Shown: one piece after another, positions 54,806 through 60,537 of the stretch
How the letters are laid out: each line of letters opens with the position of its first letter
Numbering within the stretch: the stretch's first letter is position 1
Notes under the pieces: model-generated
Seen by the model: only the letters and a program-made list of their open reading frames with translations
Databases searched by the model: none
What the model was told of the DNA's origin: nothing
IMG/VR virus record: IMGVR_UViG_3300028603_000024
Coordinates: 1-64,000 of that record
Length of the DNA stretch: 64,000 bases
Origin: a virus
Taxonomy: Duplodnaviria; Caudoviricetes
Reading direction: 5' to 3' (one strand)
Translations under genes and position numbers: made by a program

Positions 54806-55411
54806 TTACAGCACCTCGCCGCCCTGCTCAAGCAGGCCGAATCCGGAATCGTCTTCGGTCCCCGTTTCGGTTTCCTCCGCCGCCTCGGTATCGGGCTCGA
54901 CTTCGTCGATTTCGGTTTCCTCCGCCGCCTCGGTATCGGGCTCGACTTCGTCGATTTCGGTTTCCTCCGCCGCCTCGGTATCGGGCTCGACTTCGTCGAT
55001 TTCGGGCTCCTCGGGATCATCGGCCTCGGCGGGCTCGGCGGCCTTCTCGGGCTCGGACGTTGTCGGGACCGTCGCGGCGGCTACCCGGTCAATCTCAGCT
55101 CTCCCGTCCGGCGTGAGAAGATCCGTCGCCGCAACCGCCCGGCCCGCAGTCTTCTCGCCCGTCTGTAGCAGGGCTTCAACGGAGACCCATTCACCATCTC
55201 GCAGTACTTGATGGTCGAGATCGATGTTCTTGTTCCGCACCTCAGCGGCCAGGGCGGTTACCAGCAACTTGCGGTTCACGCAACTCTCGAGATGTCCGTC
55301 AACGATGTATACGGATCCCGGCGCCAGATTCTTGCCATACCCGGTATTAATCAGTAGGCGGAAAGTTTTTTTGCCGACTACACGAATTACGGTGCGCATT
55401 TTCAGAAACAT
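54806..55411 (-). CDS. Hypothetical protein with acidic repeat tail
   Basis: Basic N-terminal domain plus EIDEVEPDTEAAEET x3. Confidence 0.7.
   Translation of the reverse strand: MFLKMRTVIRVVGKKTFRLLINTGYGKNLAPGSVYIVDGHLESCVNRKLLVTALAAEVRNKNIDLDHQVLRDGEWVSVEALLQTGEKTAGRAVAATDLLTPDGRAEIDRVAAATVPTTSEPEKAAEPAEADDPEEPEIDEVEPDTEAAEETEIDEVEPDTEAAEETEIDEVEPDTEAAEETETGTEDDSGFGLLEQGGEVL
54865..55005. repeat. 45-bp perfect tandem repeat, 3 copies
   Basis: Unit tttcggtttcctccgccgcctcggtatcgggctcgacttcgtcga. Confidence 0.95.
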
Positions 55412-55417
55412 TCTCTA

Positions 55418-56625
55418 CCGTTCCCTTTCTGTTAACACAAGTTAACAATGTTTGGTTTGAACTCGGCACCGTATGGTCCGAGGATGAACCGTGATAGTAT
55501 ATTCTTGGCCGCGTTTATATCCGCATTATCGGTATGGCCACAACTCCGACAGCAAAACGCGACCCCGTCACGGCTGCTCCGCTCGATGTGACCACACTCA
55601 TGGCAGGTGATACTGGTGTTGAAAGCAGGCACCGATCTGAACACAACACGGTTGTCCTCTGATCGGGCTTGCAGCCTGCTTAACCAATACCTCACGTTCC
55701 ATGAACCGAGCGATCGACGCATACTTTTAGTCAAGCGTCGTTTGACCTTCGTCTTGTTGCAAATGCCCTTCAACTGCTCGACCACCACAAGATCAGCTTT
55801 GGCCGCTACATCCCTGGCGATCTCATCGATACGCTGCCGTAGCATGCGCCTGGCCCTTAACTGGCCCCTGCTCCCGTGCTTGCGCCTCTTGATCCGTTCA
55901 ATACAGCTTTCTACGTCGGTACCAAGTTGCTCGCCGGTCGATAAGCTGGCCAAAGCCTTGATGCCGGTATCGACACCTACCGCTACTTTTGGCTGCTTCT
56001 TCGGCCCCGTCTCAATCTCAAAACAGAGTTGCACGGACTTTTCTGTAATCACGTAGGATTCCAGCCGCCGGCCTCGCTCGACAAGTCTGTGAAAGTGCTT
56101 GTGATAACGAACCGGAAGATCGAGAATGATCCCATTGCCGATACTCGCCAAGTGCAGCCAAGCGTCGAACTCTTTCGTGCGCTTTGTGTGCTGAAGGGAG
56201 GCGATGGTGCTGCTAACACACATTCGTTTACCATTGTGTACCGGCTTTACTGCCTTCTCACCATCTTTGTTACGAGCCGCGAGGACCATATCGATCGCTT
56301 CCCTCGCGGCAACCTTCCGCAACCTGGCCGAGAACCAAGAGGGCACGGCATCAACAATCGGCTTCAGCAGTTCAGACTTCTTGGGCCGCTGCTCCCAGAA
56401 CAAGTCAATGAACTCATTAACCACCCGGGCATACTCCGCGAGGACAACCCGCAACTCCGCCAGCTTCGCAGCGGTGGAGAACTTGAAACTTAATTTGGTT
56501 GAGCGGTTAATCTTCATTCGCAGCTTCCAGTGCACGCTTAGCCTTGTTCTTGGCCGACCTCTTGCCGTAAATCCTCGCACACATCGAAGTAACCACGTCA
56601 ATGAAGTCCTGAACCAACTCCAGAC
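55418..56625 (-). mobile_element. IS607-family remnant (truncated tnpA plus intact tnpB); left boundary approximate
   Basis: tnpA C-terminal fragment overlapping the tnpB start; putative right end ...GGAACGG at 55418; lower GC than the flanks. Confidence 0.75.
55432..56517 (-). CDS. tnpB: TnpB RNA-guided endonuclease
   Basis: RuvC-I VGVDTG, RuvC-II VVVEQL, Zn finger CHECG...CRSCG, RuvC-III NADINAAKNI; start ATG 56517 (MKINRS). Confidence 0.93.
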   Translation of the reverse strand: MKINRSTKLSFKFSTAAKLAELRVVLAEYARVVNEFIDLFWEQRPKKSELLKPIVDAVPSWFSARLRKVAAREAIDMVLAARNKDGEKAVKPVHNGKRMCVSSTIASLQHTKRTKEFDAWLHLASIGNGIILDLPVRYHKHFHRLVERGRRLESYVITEKSVQLCFEIETGPKKQPKVAVGVDTGIKALASLSTGEQLGTDVESCIERIKRRKHGSRGQLRARRMLRQRIDEIARDVAAKADLVVVEQLKGICNKTKVKRRLTKSMRRSLGSWNVRYWLSRLQARSEDNRVVFRSVPAFNTSITCHECGHIERSSRDGVAFCCRSCGHTDNADINAAKNILSRFILGPYGAEFKPNIVNLC

Positions 56626-56680
56626 CTCGTCGTCTTGGGCTATGGCCCGGATCAGACGGCGGGCGGCGAGGACGAAACAT
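56507..56680 (-). pseudogene. tnpA: 57-aa ORF carrying only the C-terminal helix of the IS607 serine-recombinase TnpA
   Basis: Not in the track. MFRPRRPPSDPGHSPRRRGL-ELVQDFIDVVTSMCARIYGKRSAKNKAKRALEAANED; the ELVxD...TS..AR.YGKRS pattern is the IS607 TnpA C-terminus. Confidence 0.8.
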
Positions 56681-56683
56681 CAA

Positions 56684-57091
56684 TCAGCTGATCGCGGCGC
56701 CGAGCAGCGCTGACAGATCCGGGGACTGAGAAATCACAGTCTTGATCTGCGACATGCGATCTCCGGACGCCTGCTTGGTGCTCACACCGAGACGCCGCCG
56801 CACATGCTGCTCAACTTCGCTGCCGGAGGCCTGCTTGATCGTATCGATCCGCTGGGCGACCTGGCTACCGAAGGTGAGGGCCGTGACGAGGTCGTCATCG
56901 CCAGCCAACTTGACGCCAGCGTTCTGCAAAACGCGGGCGCCGGCGGGGAAAAATACCTCTTCGCTCATCCGTCCCGCCAGGTCCAAGAACGGCGTTGCCG
57001 GACGTTTCACCATTTTCTCGCTCATCATCTCTGCTTTCTGGCACATGACCTGTGCCGTAGTTCTCGGTTCCACCAGGTACCTTACAGGCAT
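56684..57091 (-). CDS. Head-module protein with K-x-A motifs (start uncertain)
   Basis: KLAG and KQAS x2; directly after the major capsid gene. Confidence 0.7.
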   Translation of the reverse strand: MPVRYLVEPRTTAQVMCQKAEMMSEKMVKRPATPFLDLAGRMSEEVFFPAGARVLQNAGVKLAGDDDLVTALTFGSQVAQRIDTIKQASGSEVEQHVRRRLGVSTKQASGDRMSQIKTVISQSPDLSALLGAAIS

Positions 57092-57271: not shown

Positions 57272-58270
57272 TTAAACTTCCGAGCCCTCGCCTCCCCACT
57301 TGGCCAGCAGGAAGTCGCAACGAGCGACGCCGGCGAAGTGGGCGATGACCTGAGCAACCAGCTGGTACGCCCAGAACTCGACCATGAAAGCGTCCTTCTT
57401 CACGTGCATCGTGGCGTCGGTGAGAACCAGCGTTTCACCGATGAAGTTGCCGGGAGCAAAATAGTAAACTGAACCGTCCGGGACCAGCCAATTTTTGATT
57501 GTCACCAGCCAACGAACGCCCATCCACTCTCGCTCGCCCCAGCCCTTCTGCTTCACCTCGGAGACCAAGTCACCGAGGTCGGTATGTGACCACTTGAGGA
57601 ACTGCTTCGAGGTCGCCAGGTTGACCACGGCGGTAGCCGGGTCAAGCCCGAAGTTGGAGCGGTTCATGATCGTGAGCGAGTCCGCAACGGAGTCGGGGTT
57701 GATGGAGTCGTTGATGGTATCCCACTGGATCGTCTGGGTCTGCGGCAGGATCTCGCCGGCGGCACCCGTGGTCGGAGCCAACATGGTGTTGATCAGCTGG
57801 AAGAAACGCAAATCTTCCAGACCGAGCAGATCCTTCAGCGAGTTGTCACTGACCATCTGTCGCAGGTCGCTCTTGTAAGTCAGGAGCTGCGCAGTGTCCT
57901 TCTGGAATCGTCGAGTCATCAGGCGGCTGAAACGAGCCTCGTAACGACGCCCGTGGAAATACCACGACTTCGGCCGCTGCCCCAGCGTGGCTACCATGCC
58001 GCCCGGGGTATCGGCCTCGATCTCGCCGATGTAGCGAGGATCGTCATCTTCGAGGGACGGGACCAGCTCCTCGGAGCCGATTTGGCGGGGTTCGAGAATA
58101 TTACGGCTGATGCTGCCTTCGCGAACTCGCGTACGGATCACGTCAGTCGTCGCCGCGGCGACTTTGTACGCCCCTTCCGGGCCGGACTCGTCACTCATCC
58201 AGTCCCGCATCTGGGCGTTGGCCACCTTGATCTCCGCGGGGCTCAGGGTGCTGGAAGCATGTTCTTTCAT
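57272..58270 (-). CDS. Major capsid protein (HK97 fold, putative)
   Basis: 332 aa; order protease-scaffold-decoration-MCP; GGAGA SD; IRTRVREGSISRNIL...GLEDLRF...GEREWMGV...VPDGSVYYFA. Confidence 0.8.
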   Translation of the reverse strand: MKEHASSTLSPAEIKVANAQMRDWMSDESGPEGAYKVAAATTDVIRTRVREGSISRNILEPRQIGSEELVPSLEDDDPRYIGEIEADTPGGMVATLGQRPKSWYFHGRRYEARFSRLMTRRFQKDTAQLLTYKSDLRQMVSDNSLKDLLGLEDLRFFQLINTMLAPTTGAAGEILPQTQTIQWDTINDSINPDSVADSLTIMNRSNFGLDPATAVVNLATSKQFLKWSHTDLGDLVSEVKQKGWGEREWMGVRWLVTIKNWLVPDGSVYYFAPGNFIGETLVLTDATMHVKKDAFMVEFWAYQLVAQVIAHFAGVARCDFLLAKWGGEGSEV

Positions 58271-59418: not shown

Positions 59419-60537
59419 TTACACAGTCGCGGCAGCGGGATCAGCGGCAGCGACCGGAGCCGATGCGGCAGCGGGAGCAGCGGCCGGGGTCGTAGGGGCC
59501 GCAGGGGCCGAACCTGACTGTTCCTGAACTACGGCGGCAACGGCCTCGATATCCTCTGGGGCCATGCCCATGCTGCCCAGCAACTCCTTCATCTCGTCGA
59601 TGGTCATCTCACCGCTCTGTACCGCTGCCAGTATCTCCTGCAGGATCTTCTCGGGGTCATCGGCCCCGGCAGGGGCAGGACTCGCGGCCGGATCAGTCGC
59701 GGGCACATCCCCGGAGGGAACAGCGCCGGGCAGCACGGCGGAGTCATCATCAGCCGCAGCTTTGAAGGTACCGGCCAGTACGCTGTTGTAGACCTCGTCG
59801 TCTAAGCTGACGAGGTAGCCGTTTGCCGCTTTTACGCCTTCGTCTGCAAAGGCGGCAACAACGGCTGCCTGCTTGGTAAGAACATCTGCCGTAGCAGGCA
59901 GGCGAGCGGCTTGCAGAGCCGCCAGTATTCGGGTCTTGGCCTGCTTCTCCTGCAACAGGAGAGACTGTGATTCCGCCTCCGTGATCAGGGAAGCCTCCTT
60001 GTCCGTAGCTGAGTCCGTTGAGCCTTCCGGATCCGTGGCGTTCTCCTCGACCGGGAGCAGGCTGCTGGCCTCTTTCTCGAAGGCGTCGAGCTGCGCCAGC
60101 AGAGCCGCGGACTTCGAATCGAACTTCGGACCACCGACACCGCCGACGTCTCCTTCGGCTTGGTTGTGTCCCTTGCCCTCTTCACTACCGCCCAGGCGCC
60201 CGGTATCGGTATCGGTGTCGCCGGAGGCAACAACATGCTCGGGTTTGATCTCCGCGGACGGCGGATCGGCGACCGTACCCGGATTAAGCTCGGCCTGGTT
60301 CGGCAGATTCTTCTTTTTCTCTTTGACGTTGGCCGTCCCACCAGTGGCGTCCACGCCCATGTCACCCGTGGTCGCCTTAGCATCTGCGGCGTTCTCCGCC
60401 GCAAATCCGCCGGTCTCCGCCGGCTGGTCCCCGTCGGGAGCCTTGCCTGACGGATGCGCCGTCGGCGCCTCCGCCGAAGCCGCCTTATTGCTGCTCTGCA
60501 CCAAGGAACGCAGTTGAGCCAACACGTTAGTACTCAT
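59419..60537 (-). CDS. Scaffold/internal head protein (acidic, low complexity)
   Basis: Eight K-x-A sites; follows the protease. Confidence 0.65.
   Translation of the reverse strand: MSTNVLAQLRSLVQSSNKAASAEAPTAHPSGKAPDGDQPAETGGFAAENAADAKATTGDMGVDATGGTANVKEKKKNLPNQAELNPGTVADPPSAEIKPEHVVASGDTDTDTGRLGGSEEGKGHNQAEGDVGGVGGPKFDSKSAALLAQLDAFEKEASSLLPVEENATDPEGSTDSATDKEASLITEAESQSLLLQEKQAKTRILAALQAARLPATADVLTKQAAVVAAFADEGVKAANGYLVSLDDEVYNSVLAGTFKAAADDDSAVLPGAVPSGDVPATDPAASPAPAGADDPEKILQEILAAVQSGEMTIDEMKELLGSMGMAPEDIEAVAAVVQEQSGSAPAAPTTPAAAPAAASAPVAAADPAAATV

What the first reader, a model, noticed from the sequence alone, without database searches (positions are those of the whole stretch)
55398..56683. 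Transposase-less IS607 TnpB coupled into the capsid operon, with a guide predicted to match the next gene's start
Seen: TnpB keeps all three RuvC acidic residues and the Zn finger. TnpA is reduced to its last 37 or so residues inside a 57-aa ORF that starts 3 nt after the stop of head gene 56684 and overlaps the tnpB ATG, which would form a translational bridge. The tnpB 3' end carries hairpins (55462-55482, 55430-55447) and ends GGAACGG at 55418. Known: the TnpB omegaRNA comes from the element right end and the guide is the flanking sequence. Inference: the guide is about TAGAGAATGTTTCTGAAAAT, which covers the ATG of the 54806-55411 gene. The element cannot transpose alone and may act as an RNA-guided homing or inter-phage competition nuclease expressed late against relatives lacking the insert.
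Basis: partly seen in the sequence, partly recalled or inferred. Interest (0 to 1): 0.7.

Follow-up and report, generated by a model that had tools for sequence, protein, structure and literature searches.

The report
Transposase-less IS607 TnpB in phage head operon
A large uncultured phage carries, between two head-module genes, the remnant of an IS607 insertion sequence that has lost its transposase but keeps an intact RNA-guided nuclease (TnpB) and its guide-RNA scaffold; it is a well-preserved example of a known kind of element, and its proposed role as a phage-against-phage homing nuclease remains untested.

Summary
tnpB (55432-56517, minus strand, 361 aa) has an intact RuvC triad and zinc finger. 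It differs at none of 96 columns that are at least 95% conserved in 123 homologues. Upstream, only the last 37 codons of a serine-recombinase tnpA survive. No left end is detectable. The right end stops at GGAACGGT (55424-55417), a motif present in 55 of 60 related loci. The last ~165 nt of tnpB carry a covarying RNA structure absent from Rfam; the window forms 25 of its 27 pairs.

Two corrections. By analogy with ISXfa1 (PMC10711439), the conserved T belongs to the scaffold, so the guide starts at 55416. The left junction is GAGG|T, as in 13 full-length relatives. The rebuilt empty site places a Shine-Dalgarno-like GAGG 6 nt before the next gene's ATG.

Distant relatives of the phage have the same gene order without tnpB, so this is a lineage-specific insertion, not fixed synteny.

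Homing or exclusion against insert-free phages is the most likely function. No close empty allele could be fetched and nothing shows cleavage.

This scan has already reported at least seven similar transposase-less phage TnpBs on other DNA. Verdict: new member of a known kind.

The parts
55432..56517 (-). tnpB, 361 aa, RuvC D183/E247/D333 and CxxC...CxxC zinc finger intact
56507..56683 (-). 58-codon ORF (57 aa from the ATG at 56680). Only its last 37 residues (56620-56510) are homologous to the C-terminus of IS607 serine-recombinase TnpA. Its stop overlaps the tnpB ATG by 11 nt.
56621..56683 (-). 63 nt between the stop of the 135-aa gene and the start of TnpA homology. No similarity to left ends of relatives, so probably native phage spacer. 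It ends in GAGG (56628-56625), then T (56624).
56624..56628 (-). Left junction GAGG|T. It has the same (R)GG|T signature as the left junction of 13 full-length relatives. Candidate TAM.
   Evidence: TAM literature PMC13565253, PMC10711439
55417..55579 (-). Predicted omegaRNA scaffold inside the 3' end of tnpB plus 15 nt after its stop; 25 of the 27 family consensus pairs form.
55462..55482 (-). Hairpin CUCGG-ACCAUACGGUG-CCGAG, helix 7 of the consensus; all 6 pairs covary in the family.
55430..55447 (-). Terminal hairpin UGUUAAC-UUGU-GUUAACA, spanning the tnpB stop codon.
55417..55424 (-). Right-end terminal motif GGAACGGT (GG crossover dinucleotide plus the conserved right-flanking T).
   Evidence: PMC10711439
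55397..55416 (-). Predicted guide-encoding flank AGAGAATGTTTCTGAAAATG. It covers the ATG at 55411 and the alternative ATG at 55399, and it is unique in the 102-kb record.
54806..55411 (-). Downstream 201-aa head-module gene, whose ribosome-binding site was split off by the insertion.
56684..57091 (-). Upstream 135-aa head-module gene with an intact C-terminus.
57272..58270 (-). Major capsid protein (context).

Best explanation
This is a 1.2-kb immobilised remnant of an IS607-family insertion sequence, spanning about 56624 to 55417. It keeps the last 37 codons of tnpA, a complete tnpB, and the right end that encodes the omegaRNA scaffold.

The element landed at a G-rich GAGG|T site. That site was the Shine-Dalgarno sequence of the 201-aa head-module gene of an uncultured ~200-kb phage. 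The left end and tnpA codons 1-155 are gone, so the element cannot transpose by itself.

It lies in the same orientation as the head genes, with no terminator in between, so it should be transcribed with the late head operon (inferred).

TnpB would process that transcript into an omegaRNA whose guide is the first 16-20 nt of flank, AGAGAATGTTTCTGAA.. (inferred from ISDra2, ISXfa1 and CboIStron work).

The only DNA that joins a GAGG-type TAM to that target is the uninterrupted gp135-gp201 junction of an insert-free relative. In a mixed infection the RNP would cut that allele. Repair from the occupied genome would then copy the cassette in, or the cut rival would be lost. The element would thus behave like a free-standing homing endonuclease gene of T-even phages, but RNA-guided.

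Shown here: the anatomy, the ends, the intact protein, the RNA covariation, and the absence of the insert in relatives. Inferred: expression, processing, the TAM, cleavage and homing.
For: - TnpB identity and catalytic residues.
- 0 of 96 deviations at highly conserved columns among 123 homologues. Six ~92%-identical variants carry 26-29 substitutions each relative to the window copy (largely shared among them), almost none at those columns (five have none, one has one).
- TnpA reduced to residues 156-192.
- No left end by profile or pairwise search.
- Right end AACGGT conserved in 55 of 60 loci, with homology between paired copies ending there.
- A 27-pair RNA structure that is 93.7% paired versus 38-47% in slid controls, with a covariation score of 0.53 versus at most 0.15. 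The window forms 25 of 27 pairs.
- Left junction GAGG|T matches the (R)GG|T junction of 13 full-length relatives. It also fits published IS607 TAMs: GGG, TGGG, GAGGG, AGGAG (PMC10711439, 10.1101/2023.11.20.567912, PMC13565253).
- Relatives of the phage have gp135 next to gp201 with no tnpB.
- No strong terminator inside the gp135-tnpB-gp201 block.
- The guide is unique in the record.
- The right-end GGAACGG is not TAM-like, so the occupied allele should be spared (inference).
Against: - No near-identical phage with an empty site could be retrieved. The relatives found are only 48-67% identical in the capsid protein, so the empty site is reconstructed, not observed.
- The TAM of this TnpB clade is inferred from junctions, not measured.
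- Intactness may simply reflect a recent event.
- GC3 similar to the phage does not date the insertion.
- The ~92% TnpB variants may sit in other contexts, so their purifying selection may pre-date the phage insertion.
- Maturing the omegaRNA would sever the start of gp201 from its mRNA, which is a cost to the phage.
- No RNA or activity data exist.
Confidence: 0.55

Rival explanations
1. Inert passenger. A recent IS607 insertion lost its left end and transposase by deletion. What remains has not yet had time to decay, and it neither homes nor benefits the phage.
For: Solo tnpB genes are common: about half of the 57 IMG/VR loci of this clade lack an adjacent tnpA. The insert is absent from every relative that spans the site. 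No second copy or second target exists in the 102-kb record. It displaces the ribosome-binding site of gp201, which looks costly rather than adaptive.
Against: There are zero deviations at 96 conserved columns and 25 of 27 RNA pairs are intact. The tnpA part has been removed cleanly while the tnpB start region, its overlap with the tnpA tail and the whole right end are untouched. The identical protein is seen on two contigs.
Confidence: 0.3
2. Non-autonomous but still mobile element. The 63 nt after the gp135 stop would be a short left end, so a TnpA supplied in trans by a related IS607 in the host could excise and move the cassette.
For: Only about 40 bp of left end and 60 bp of right end are needed for CboIStron excision (10.1101/2023.11.20.567912). 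A TnpB 92% identical is annotated in a Neomarinimicrobiota MAG, so related elements may exist in the host. There are weak local resemblances, such as ATCAGCTGA versus ATCAGTTGA in L047.
Against: An nhmmer profile of 13 left ends finds nothing in the region even at E<=100. Pairwise alignments are no better than shuffles. No GG|T junction lies near the gp135 stop, whereas one lies exactly at the TnpA-homology break.
Confidence: 0.05
3. Domesticated for a phage function other than homing. One possibility is an RNA-guided regulator of gp201 translation or of late-mRNA processing. Another is a nuclease aimed at host or competitor DNA.
For: TnpB relatives have been exapted in phages as RNA-guided transcription factors (TldR; 10.1101/2023.11.30.569447). 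The scaffold and guide overlap the translation start of gp201, so RNP binding or processing must affect that gene.
Against: The RuvC triad is intact, unlike TldR. The guide is simply the insertion flank. The cassette is not conserved in relatives of the phage. There is no other target in the record.
Confidence: 0.08

Closest known systems
IS607-family elements with TnpB and omegaRNA (CboIStron, bioRxiv 10.1101/2023.11.20.567912; ISXfa1, PMC10711439)
   Same: A serine-recombinase tnpA tail overlaps the tnpB start. There are no inverted repeats. The right end stops in GG followed by a fixed flanking nucleotide. The left junction is G-rich (GAGG|T). The omegaRNA scaffold overlaps the 3' end of tnpB and the right end. 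The RuvC triad and zinc finger are intact.
   Different: The left end and 155 of ~193 tnpA codons are missing. The host replicon is a lytic-type large phage's head operon. The RNA scaffold gives no Rfam hit, RAGATH-18 included. The protein is only remotely similar to solved TnpBs (E 1e-6 to 1e-9, C-terminal part only).
Solo (TnpA-less) TnpB genes in phage genomes, such as Anabaena phage A-1(L) and Thermus phages TMA/YS40
   Same: A phage-borne TnpB annotated as 'transposase', present in one phage and absent in close kin (10.64898/2026.02.14.705889). The tblastn hits are of this kind.
   Different: Those copies are 23-30% identical to this one. None has been shown to home. Here the ends, the RNA structure and the rebuilt target can be stated to the base.
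Free-standing homing endonuclease genes of T-even phages (Seg, Mob; intronless homing, reviewed in PMC13565253)
   Same: A selfish nuclease gene sits between two conserved genes, is absent from relatives, and is expected to cut the insert-free allele in mixed infection and spread by repair or marker exclusion.
   Different: Target recognition would be by a guide RNA plus TAM rather than by protein. Discrimination of self from non-self comes from the split target. Unrelated protein fold. Activity not shown.
TldR, nuclease-dead TnpB exapted by phages as RNA-guided repressors
   Same: A TnpB-derived, phage-encoded protein with an adjacent guide RNA and no transposase.
   Different: TldR has lost RuvC catalytic residues and its guide targets a host promoter. 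Here the triad is intact and the guide is the insertion flank.

Membership tests
TnpB / OMEGA RNA-guided nuclease | RuvC-like domain with a D-E-D triad | tested here: met
   D183, E247 and D333 are invariant columns in A1; codons checked.
TnpB / OMEGA RNA-guided nuclease | C-terminal CxxC...CxxC zinc finger (TNB domain) | tested here: met
   Pfam PF07282 at 5.7e-15. C305/C308/C323/C326 are invariant.
TnpB / OMEGA RNA-guided nuclease | Structured guide-RNA scaffold overlapping the 3' end of the gene and ending at the element's right end | tested here: met
   27 pairs, 93.7% paired, and 20 pairs with compensatory changes; both controls are far lower. The window forms 25 of 27 pairs. In silico only.
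TnpB / OMEGA RNA-guided nuclease | Guide- and TAM-dependent DNA cleavage | not testable with these tools
   Needs RIP-seq and TAM-library or interference assays.
IS607 family insertion sequence | Serine-recombinase TnpA upstream of tnpB and overlapping it | tested here: inconclusive
   Only residues 156-192 of ~193 remain. This is enough to show ancestry, but the gene is not functional.
IS607 family insertion sequence | Right end terminating in the GG crossover dinucleotide with a fixed right-flanking nucleotide; no TIR, no TSD | tested here: met
   ...GGAACGG|T at 55424-55417. AACGGT is present in 55 of 60 loci, and copy pairs diverge right after it. The published rule is in PMC10711439.
IS607 family insertion sequence | Left end with TnpA-binding repeats following a G-rich target (xGG|T) | tested here: not met
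   The GAGG|T junction is present, but no left-end sequence follows it; tnpA codon ~156 follows directly. The left-end profile finds nothing. This is a truncated derivative, not a complete IS.
TldR (nuclease-dead exapted TnpB) | Loss of RuvC catalytic residues or C-terminal truncation | tested here: not met
   The triad and full length are retained.
Homing endonuclease gene (functional class) | Presence/absence polymorphism at one site between otherwise homologous genomes, with the nuclease target reconstituted in the empty allele | tested here: inconclusive
   The insert is absent in L084, L088, L089 and L092, but these are too distant (capsid 48-67% identical) to compare the target sequence.

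The most novel reading that the evidence does not exclude
The cassette is a working RNA-guided counterpart of a phage free-standing homing endonuclease. It is expressed from the late head operon. It cuts the intact SD-ATG junction (GAGG-T-AGAGAATG...) of insert-free sister phages during co-infection and spreads or excludes them. It belongs to a clade of ~360-aa IS607 TnpBs, with an undescribed omegaRNA scaffold, that is common in very large phages.
Probability: 0.4. Interest if true: 0.6.

Novelty: new member of a known kind. Interest (0 to 1): 0.38.

Why it matters
TnpB is known to drive restorative homing of IS605 and IS607 elements inside bacterial genomes. Whether transposase-less copies in phages act as RNA-guided homing or exclusion nucleases between phages has not been tested in any paper I found.

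This locus gives a fully specified test case: protein, scaffold limits, guide, candidate TAM and rebuilt target. It also shows how an IS607 with a G-rich TAM naturally lands on a ribosome-binding site.

Its value is limited because the phage and host are uncultured and no close empty allele is in hand. The scan has other phage TnpB loci where the empty allele was found.

The compact 361-aa nuclease clade, with a covarying scaffold that is not in Rfam, may interest people mining genome editors.

Tried and rejected
The contigs holding the closest TnpBs (72-77% identical), the 92% variants and the strain variants of gp135 and gp201 could therefore not be read.
- Single-protein scans of IMG/VR with the capsid protein and with TnpB found nothing.
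- Capsid-profile scans of IMG/VR and GTDB genomes found nothing.
- Exact 29-nt searches for the gp201 start in IMG/VR and GTDB genomes found nothing.
- Rfam gave no hit, RAGATH-18 included, in the window or in 10 related loci.
- I tested whether right ends of this clade lie unusually often just upstream of a co-oriented ORF. The result was 36% versus 30% in random controls, so there is no signal.
- Model B: insertion at the GG inside the last codons of gp135, with the element supplying a new gene end. I rejected it as less likely. The present C-terminus (..LLGAAIS) resembles relatives better than the rebuilt one (..LLGRECF), and the GG|T junction at the TnpA break explains more.
- A 14-nt exact repeat of the left-junction sequence at 59790-59803 has no flanking similarity and was set aside as chance.
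- dN/dS was not computed. The nearest DNA relatives are at 65% amino-acid identity, so synonymous sites are saturated. A protein-level proxy was used instead.
- No structure prediction was run. The family assignment did not need it.
Full report
**Context.** The window is part of a 102-kb IMG/VR virus record judged about half complete. The ORF at 57272-58270 (-) is the major capsid protein. It is 29% identical over 94% of its length to the annotated capsid protein of Salmonella phage Arash, and it also matches three Vibrio phages. All genes from at least 63 kb down to 49 kb run on the minus strand and are tightly packed. Only one tnpB lies in the record.

**The gene.** The frame 55432-56601 contains tnpB, starting at the ATG at 56517 (MKINRST..., as in all homologues). 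It encodes 361 aa. It matches Pfam Cas12f1-like_TNB at 5.7e-15, OrfB_IS605 weakly, and PHROG 506 at 3.5e-24.
- A database search gave over 1000 homologues. The closest are 72-77% identical, on short metagenomic contigs.
- In a 30-sequence alignment, D183, E247 and D333 and the four zinc-finger cysteines are invariant. Their codons were checked in the window.
- Among 123 homologues, 96 columns are at least 95% conserved. The window's protein deviates at none of them; the median homologue deviates at one.
- Six proteins about 92% identical, all 361 aa, differ from the window copy by 26-29 substitutions each, largely shared among them. Five of the six hit none of those 96 columns and one hits one. 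Under neutrality about 7 hits per sequence would be expected, so the lineage has been under purifying selection.
- I could not see the genomic context of these six variants, so that selection may pre-date the phage insertion.

**The transposase remnant.** A full 193-aa serine-recombinase TnpA from a related element (L004) matches the window only with residues 156-192, at 76% identity, on 56620-56510. PHROG 6620 matches the same tail. The family C-terminus ...ELVQDFIDxVTSMCARIYGKRSAKN.AKRAL... is clear in the window's ORF. That ORF (56683-56507) begins with a TTG directly after the TGA of the 135-aa gene, and with an ATG 3 nt later. It ends 11 nt inside tnpB. The tnpA-tnpB overlap is the native IS607 layout; L004 overlaps by ATGA. 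The first 20 codons of the ORF are not TnpA-like. An open frame of that length is unremarkable, so the 'translational bridge' is possible but has no support beyond geometry.

**The right end.** Aligning the 3' ends of 60 family loci from IMG/VR and GTDB genomes shows AACGGT, usually GGAACGGT, in 55 of them. It lies 4-52 nt after the tnpB stop, and everything after it is unrelated.
- Three independent sets of paired copies lose homology at exactly this motif: L064/L070, L040/L044, and L002/L003/L059.
- In the window the motif is at 55424-55417, 15 nt after the stop and 5 nt before the ATG of the next gene.
- Work on ISXfa1 showed that in IS607 the first nucleotide after the GG is fixed and belongs to the scaffold (PMC10711439). 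The conserved T here fits that.
- This 16-mer has no other match with up to three mismatches in the 102-kb record.

**The RNA.** An alignment of the last 190 nt of 45 non-redundant elements gave an RNAalifold consensus of 27 pairs in seven helices. Twenty of those pairs show compensatory changes.
- Counted explicitly, 93.7% of cells pair, against 38-47% when partners are slid by 1-3 columns. The covariation score is 0.53 against at most 0.15, and no shuffle out of 500 reaches the observed values.
- Because the region is coding, sequence conservation alone would not be convincing. The double changes are.
- The window forms 25 of 27 pairs. The two failures are in helix 1, where a shifted 3-bp pairing is possible.
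- Rfam 15 has no match in the window or in ten related loci. This scaffold is therefore not RAGATH-18 or any other curated family.

**The left junction.** In 13 full-length relatives the sequence upstream of tnpA can be lined up. The conserved left end begins after a G run, in the form (R)GG|T. It is then 57-85 nt to the tnpA start. This agrees with published IS607 targets and TAMs: TGGG for CboIStron, GGG for ISXfa1, and GAGGG or AGGAG in general (10.1101/2023.11.20.567912, PMC10711439, PMC13565253).
- The window has no such left end. A profile of the 13 left ends finds nothing near the locus even at E<=100, and pairwise alignments are no better than shuffles.
- The break of TnpA homology (56621/56620) is instead preceded by ...ACGACGAGG|TCTG. 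That is the same GG|T signature.
- The simplest reading is that the 63 nt from 56683 to 56621 are native phage spacer ending in the original target GAGG. The element's left part, the left end plus tnpA codons 1-155, was lost in an event that used or preserved that junction. This could have been TnpA-mediated recombination with an internal GG|T pseudo-site. I cannot distinguish that from an ordinary deletion.
- Joining the two flanks gives ...ACGACGAGG-T-AGAGA-ATG. This is a Shine-Dalgarno-like GAGG 6 nt before the gp201 start. The element therefore sits between a gene's ribosome-binding site and its start codon, which is what a G-rich target preference would favour.
- After insertion, the nearest purine-rich stretch upstream of the ATG is AAAGGGAA in the right end, 11 nt away.

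**Is it fixed in the phage lineage?** No. The capsid protein has 21 homologues at 36-68% identity. Eleven metagenomic contigs were retrieved.
- Their conserved gene order is gp195, capsid, gp135, gp201, gp285. In the four that span the site (L084, L088, L089, L092), gp135 and gp201 are separated by only 5-45 nt with no tnpB. A fifth, L087, also lacks tnpB but carries an unrelated 232-aa ORF there and has no detectable gp135 or gp201.
- These relatives are too distant to compare the target sequence itself.
- Strain-level variants of gp201 and gp135 exist as protein records on other contigs.
- The contig lengths recorded for gp201 variants (1.4, 9.6 and 30 kb) do not coincide with those recorded for any TnpB variant. 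This is compatible with empty alleles or with assembly breaks at the insert, and proves neither.

**Expression.** Consensus scans find no convincing terminator or sigma-70 promoter between the 135-aa gene and gp201. Gaps are 0, -11 (overlap) and 20 nt. tnpB has GGAAG 6 nt before its ATG. Co-transcription with the head operon is therefore likely but inferred. GC3 of tnpB (0.64) is inside the range of the phage genes (0.61-0.78). The gene is thus not compositionally foreign, but this does not date the insertion.

**Mechanism and rivals.** Published work shows that IS605 and IS607 TnpB-omegaRNA complexes cut the TAM-plus-target joint left after excision and so restore the element by recombination (PMC10055086, 10.1101/2023.11.20.567912). 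Here no excision is possible, so the only natural substrate is the uninterrupted junction in another genome.
- That makes inter-phage homing or exclusion the best functional guess, at about 0.4-0.5.
- The occupied allele should be immune. At the left junction the TAM is followed by tnpA sequence. At the right junction the target is preceded by AACGG rather than GAGG.
- A cost is built in. Maturing the omegaRNA cuts the transcript inside the first codons of gp201.
- The main rival is an inert relic of a recent insertion, at about 0.3.
- A trans-mobilisable element with a cryptic left end, and domestication for another role, are minor possibilities.

**Comparison and novelty.** TnpB genes in phages are well known and often noted (PMC12607003, 10.64898/2026.02.14.705889, 10.1101/2024.08.14.607894). 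Solo copies are common: in this clade about half of the 57 IMG/VR loci lack an adjacent tnpA, and many of those loci lie on contigs of 130-620 kb. IS607 ends, TAMs and the fixed flanking nucleotide are published. I found no paper that tests phage-to-phage homing by TnpB. This scan has already produced at least seven follow-ups on transposase-less phage TnpBs on other DNA, some with the matching empty allele in hand. This locus is therefore a clean, well-resolved new member of a known kind, and not the most decisive example of its class.

Noticed in passing
window 54865-55012 (-), inside the 201-aa gene: There are 3.3 tandem copies of a 45-nt unit encoding the acidic repeat EETEIDEVEPDTEAA. Otherwise near-identical protein variants in public data carry about 0, 1 or 3 copies. 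The C-terminal tail of this head-module protein is therefore length-polymorphic between strains.
   Followed up: partly
L002-L058 (IMG/VR loci): This ~360-aa IS607-type TnpB clade (48-65% identical to the window copy) occurs on 57 IMG/VR contigs, many of them 130-620 kb. One 241-kb contig holds two solo copies whose homology starts at the tnpB ATG (L040, L044). All share the AACGGT right end and a covarying scaffold that Rfam does not contain.
   Followed up: partly
L002:5928-6000 and L059:3928-4000: In the closest viral relatives, the 73 nt upstream of tnpB encode the end of a ribbon-helix-helix-like protein (..GISIAELIRRVLDRE..) instead of TnpA. This recalls the Arc proteins recently described in IS605 elements.
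   Followed up: no
window 56621-56634 and 59790-59803 (-): The 14-nt sequence AGACGACGAGGTCT at the left junction recurs exactly inside the 372-aa head-module ORF. The flanks are unrelated, so this is probably chance.
   Followed up: partly
L087:1731-2429: In one distant relative of the phage, the slot between the capsid gene and the gp285 homologue holds a different 232-aa ORF (..HKHEFIFVRVPKTASTSTELF..; by eye it resembles a sulfotransferase, which I did not test). This intergenic neighbourhood therefore accepts other insertions too.
   Followed up: no
L064 and L070 (one Thermoplasmata MAG contig): Two 99.7%-identical full IS607 copies share the right end to the base. One of them lacks the first ~15 nt of the left end, including the GG|T junction, that the other shares with sister elements.
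   Followed up: partly
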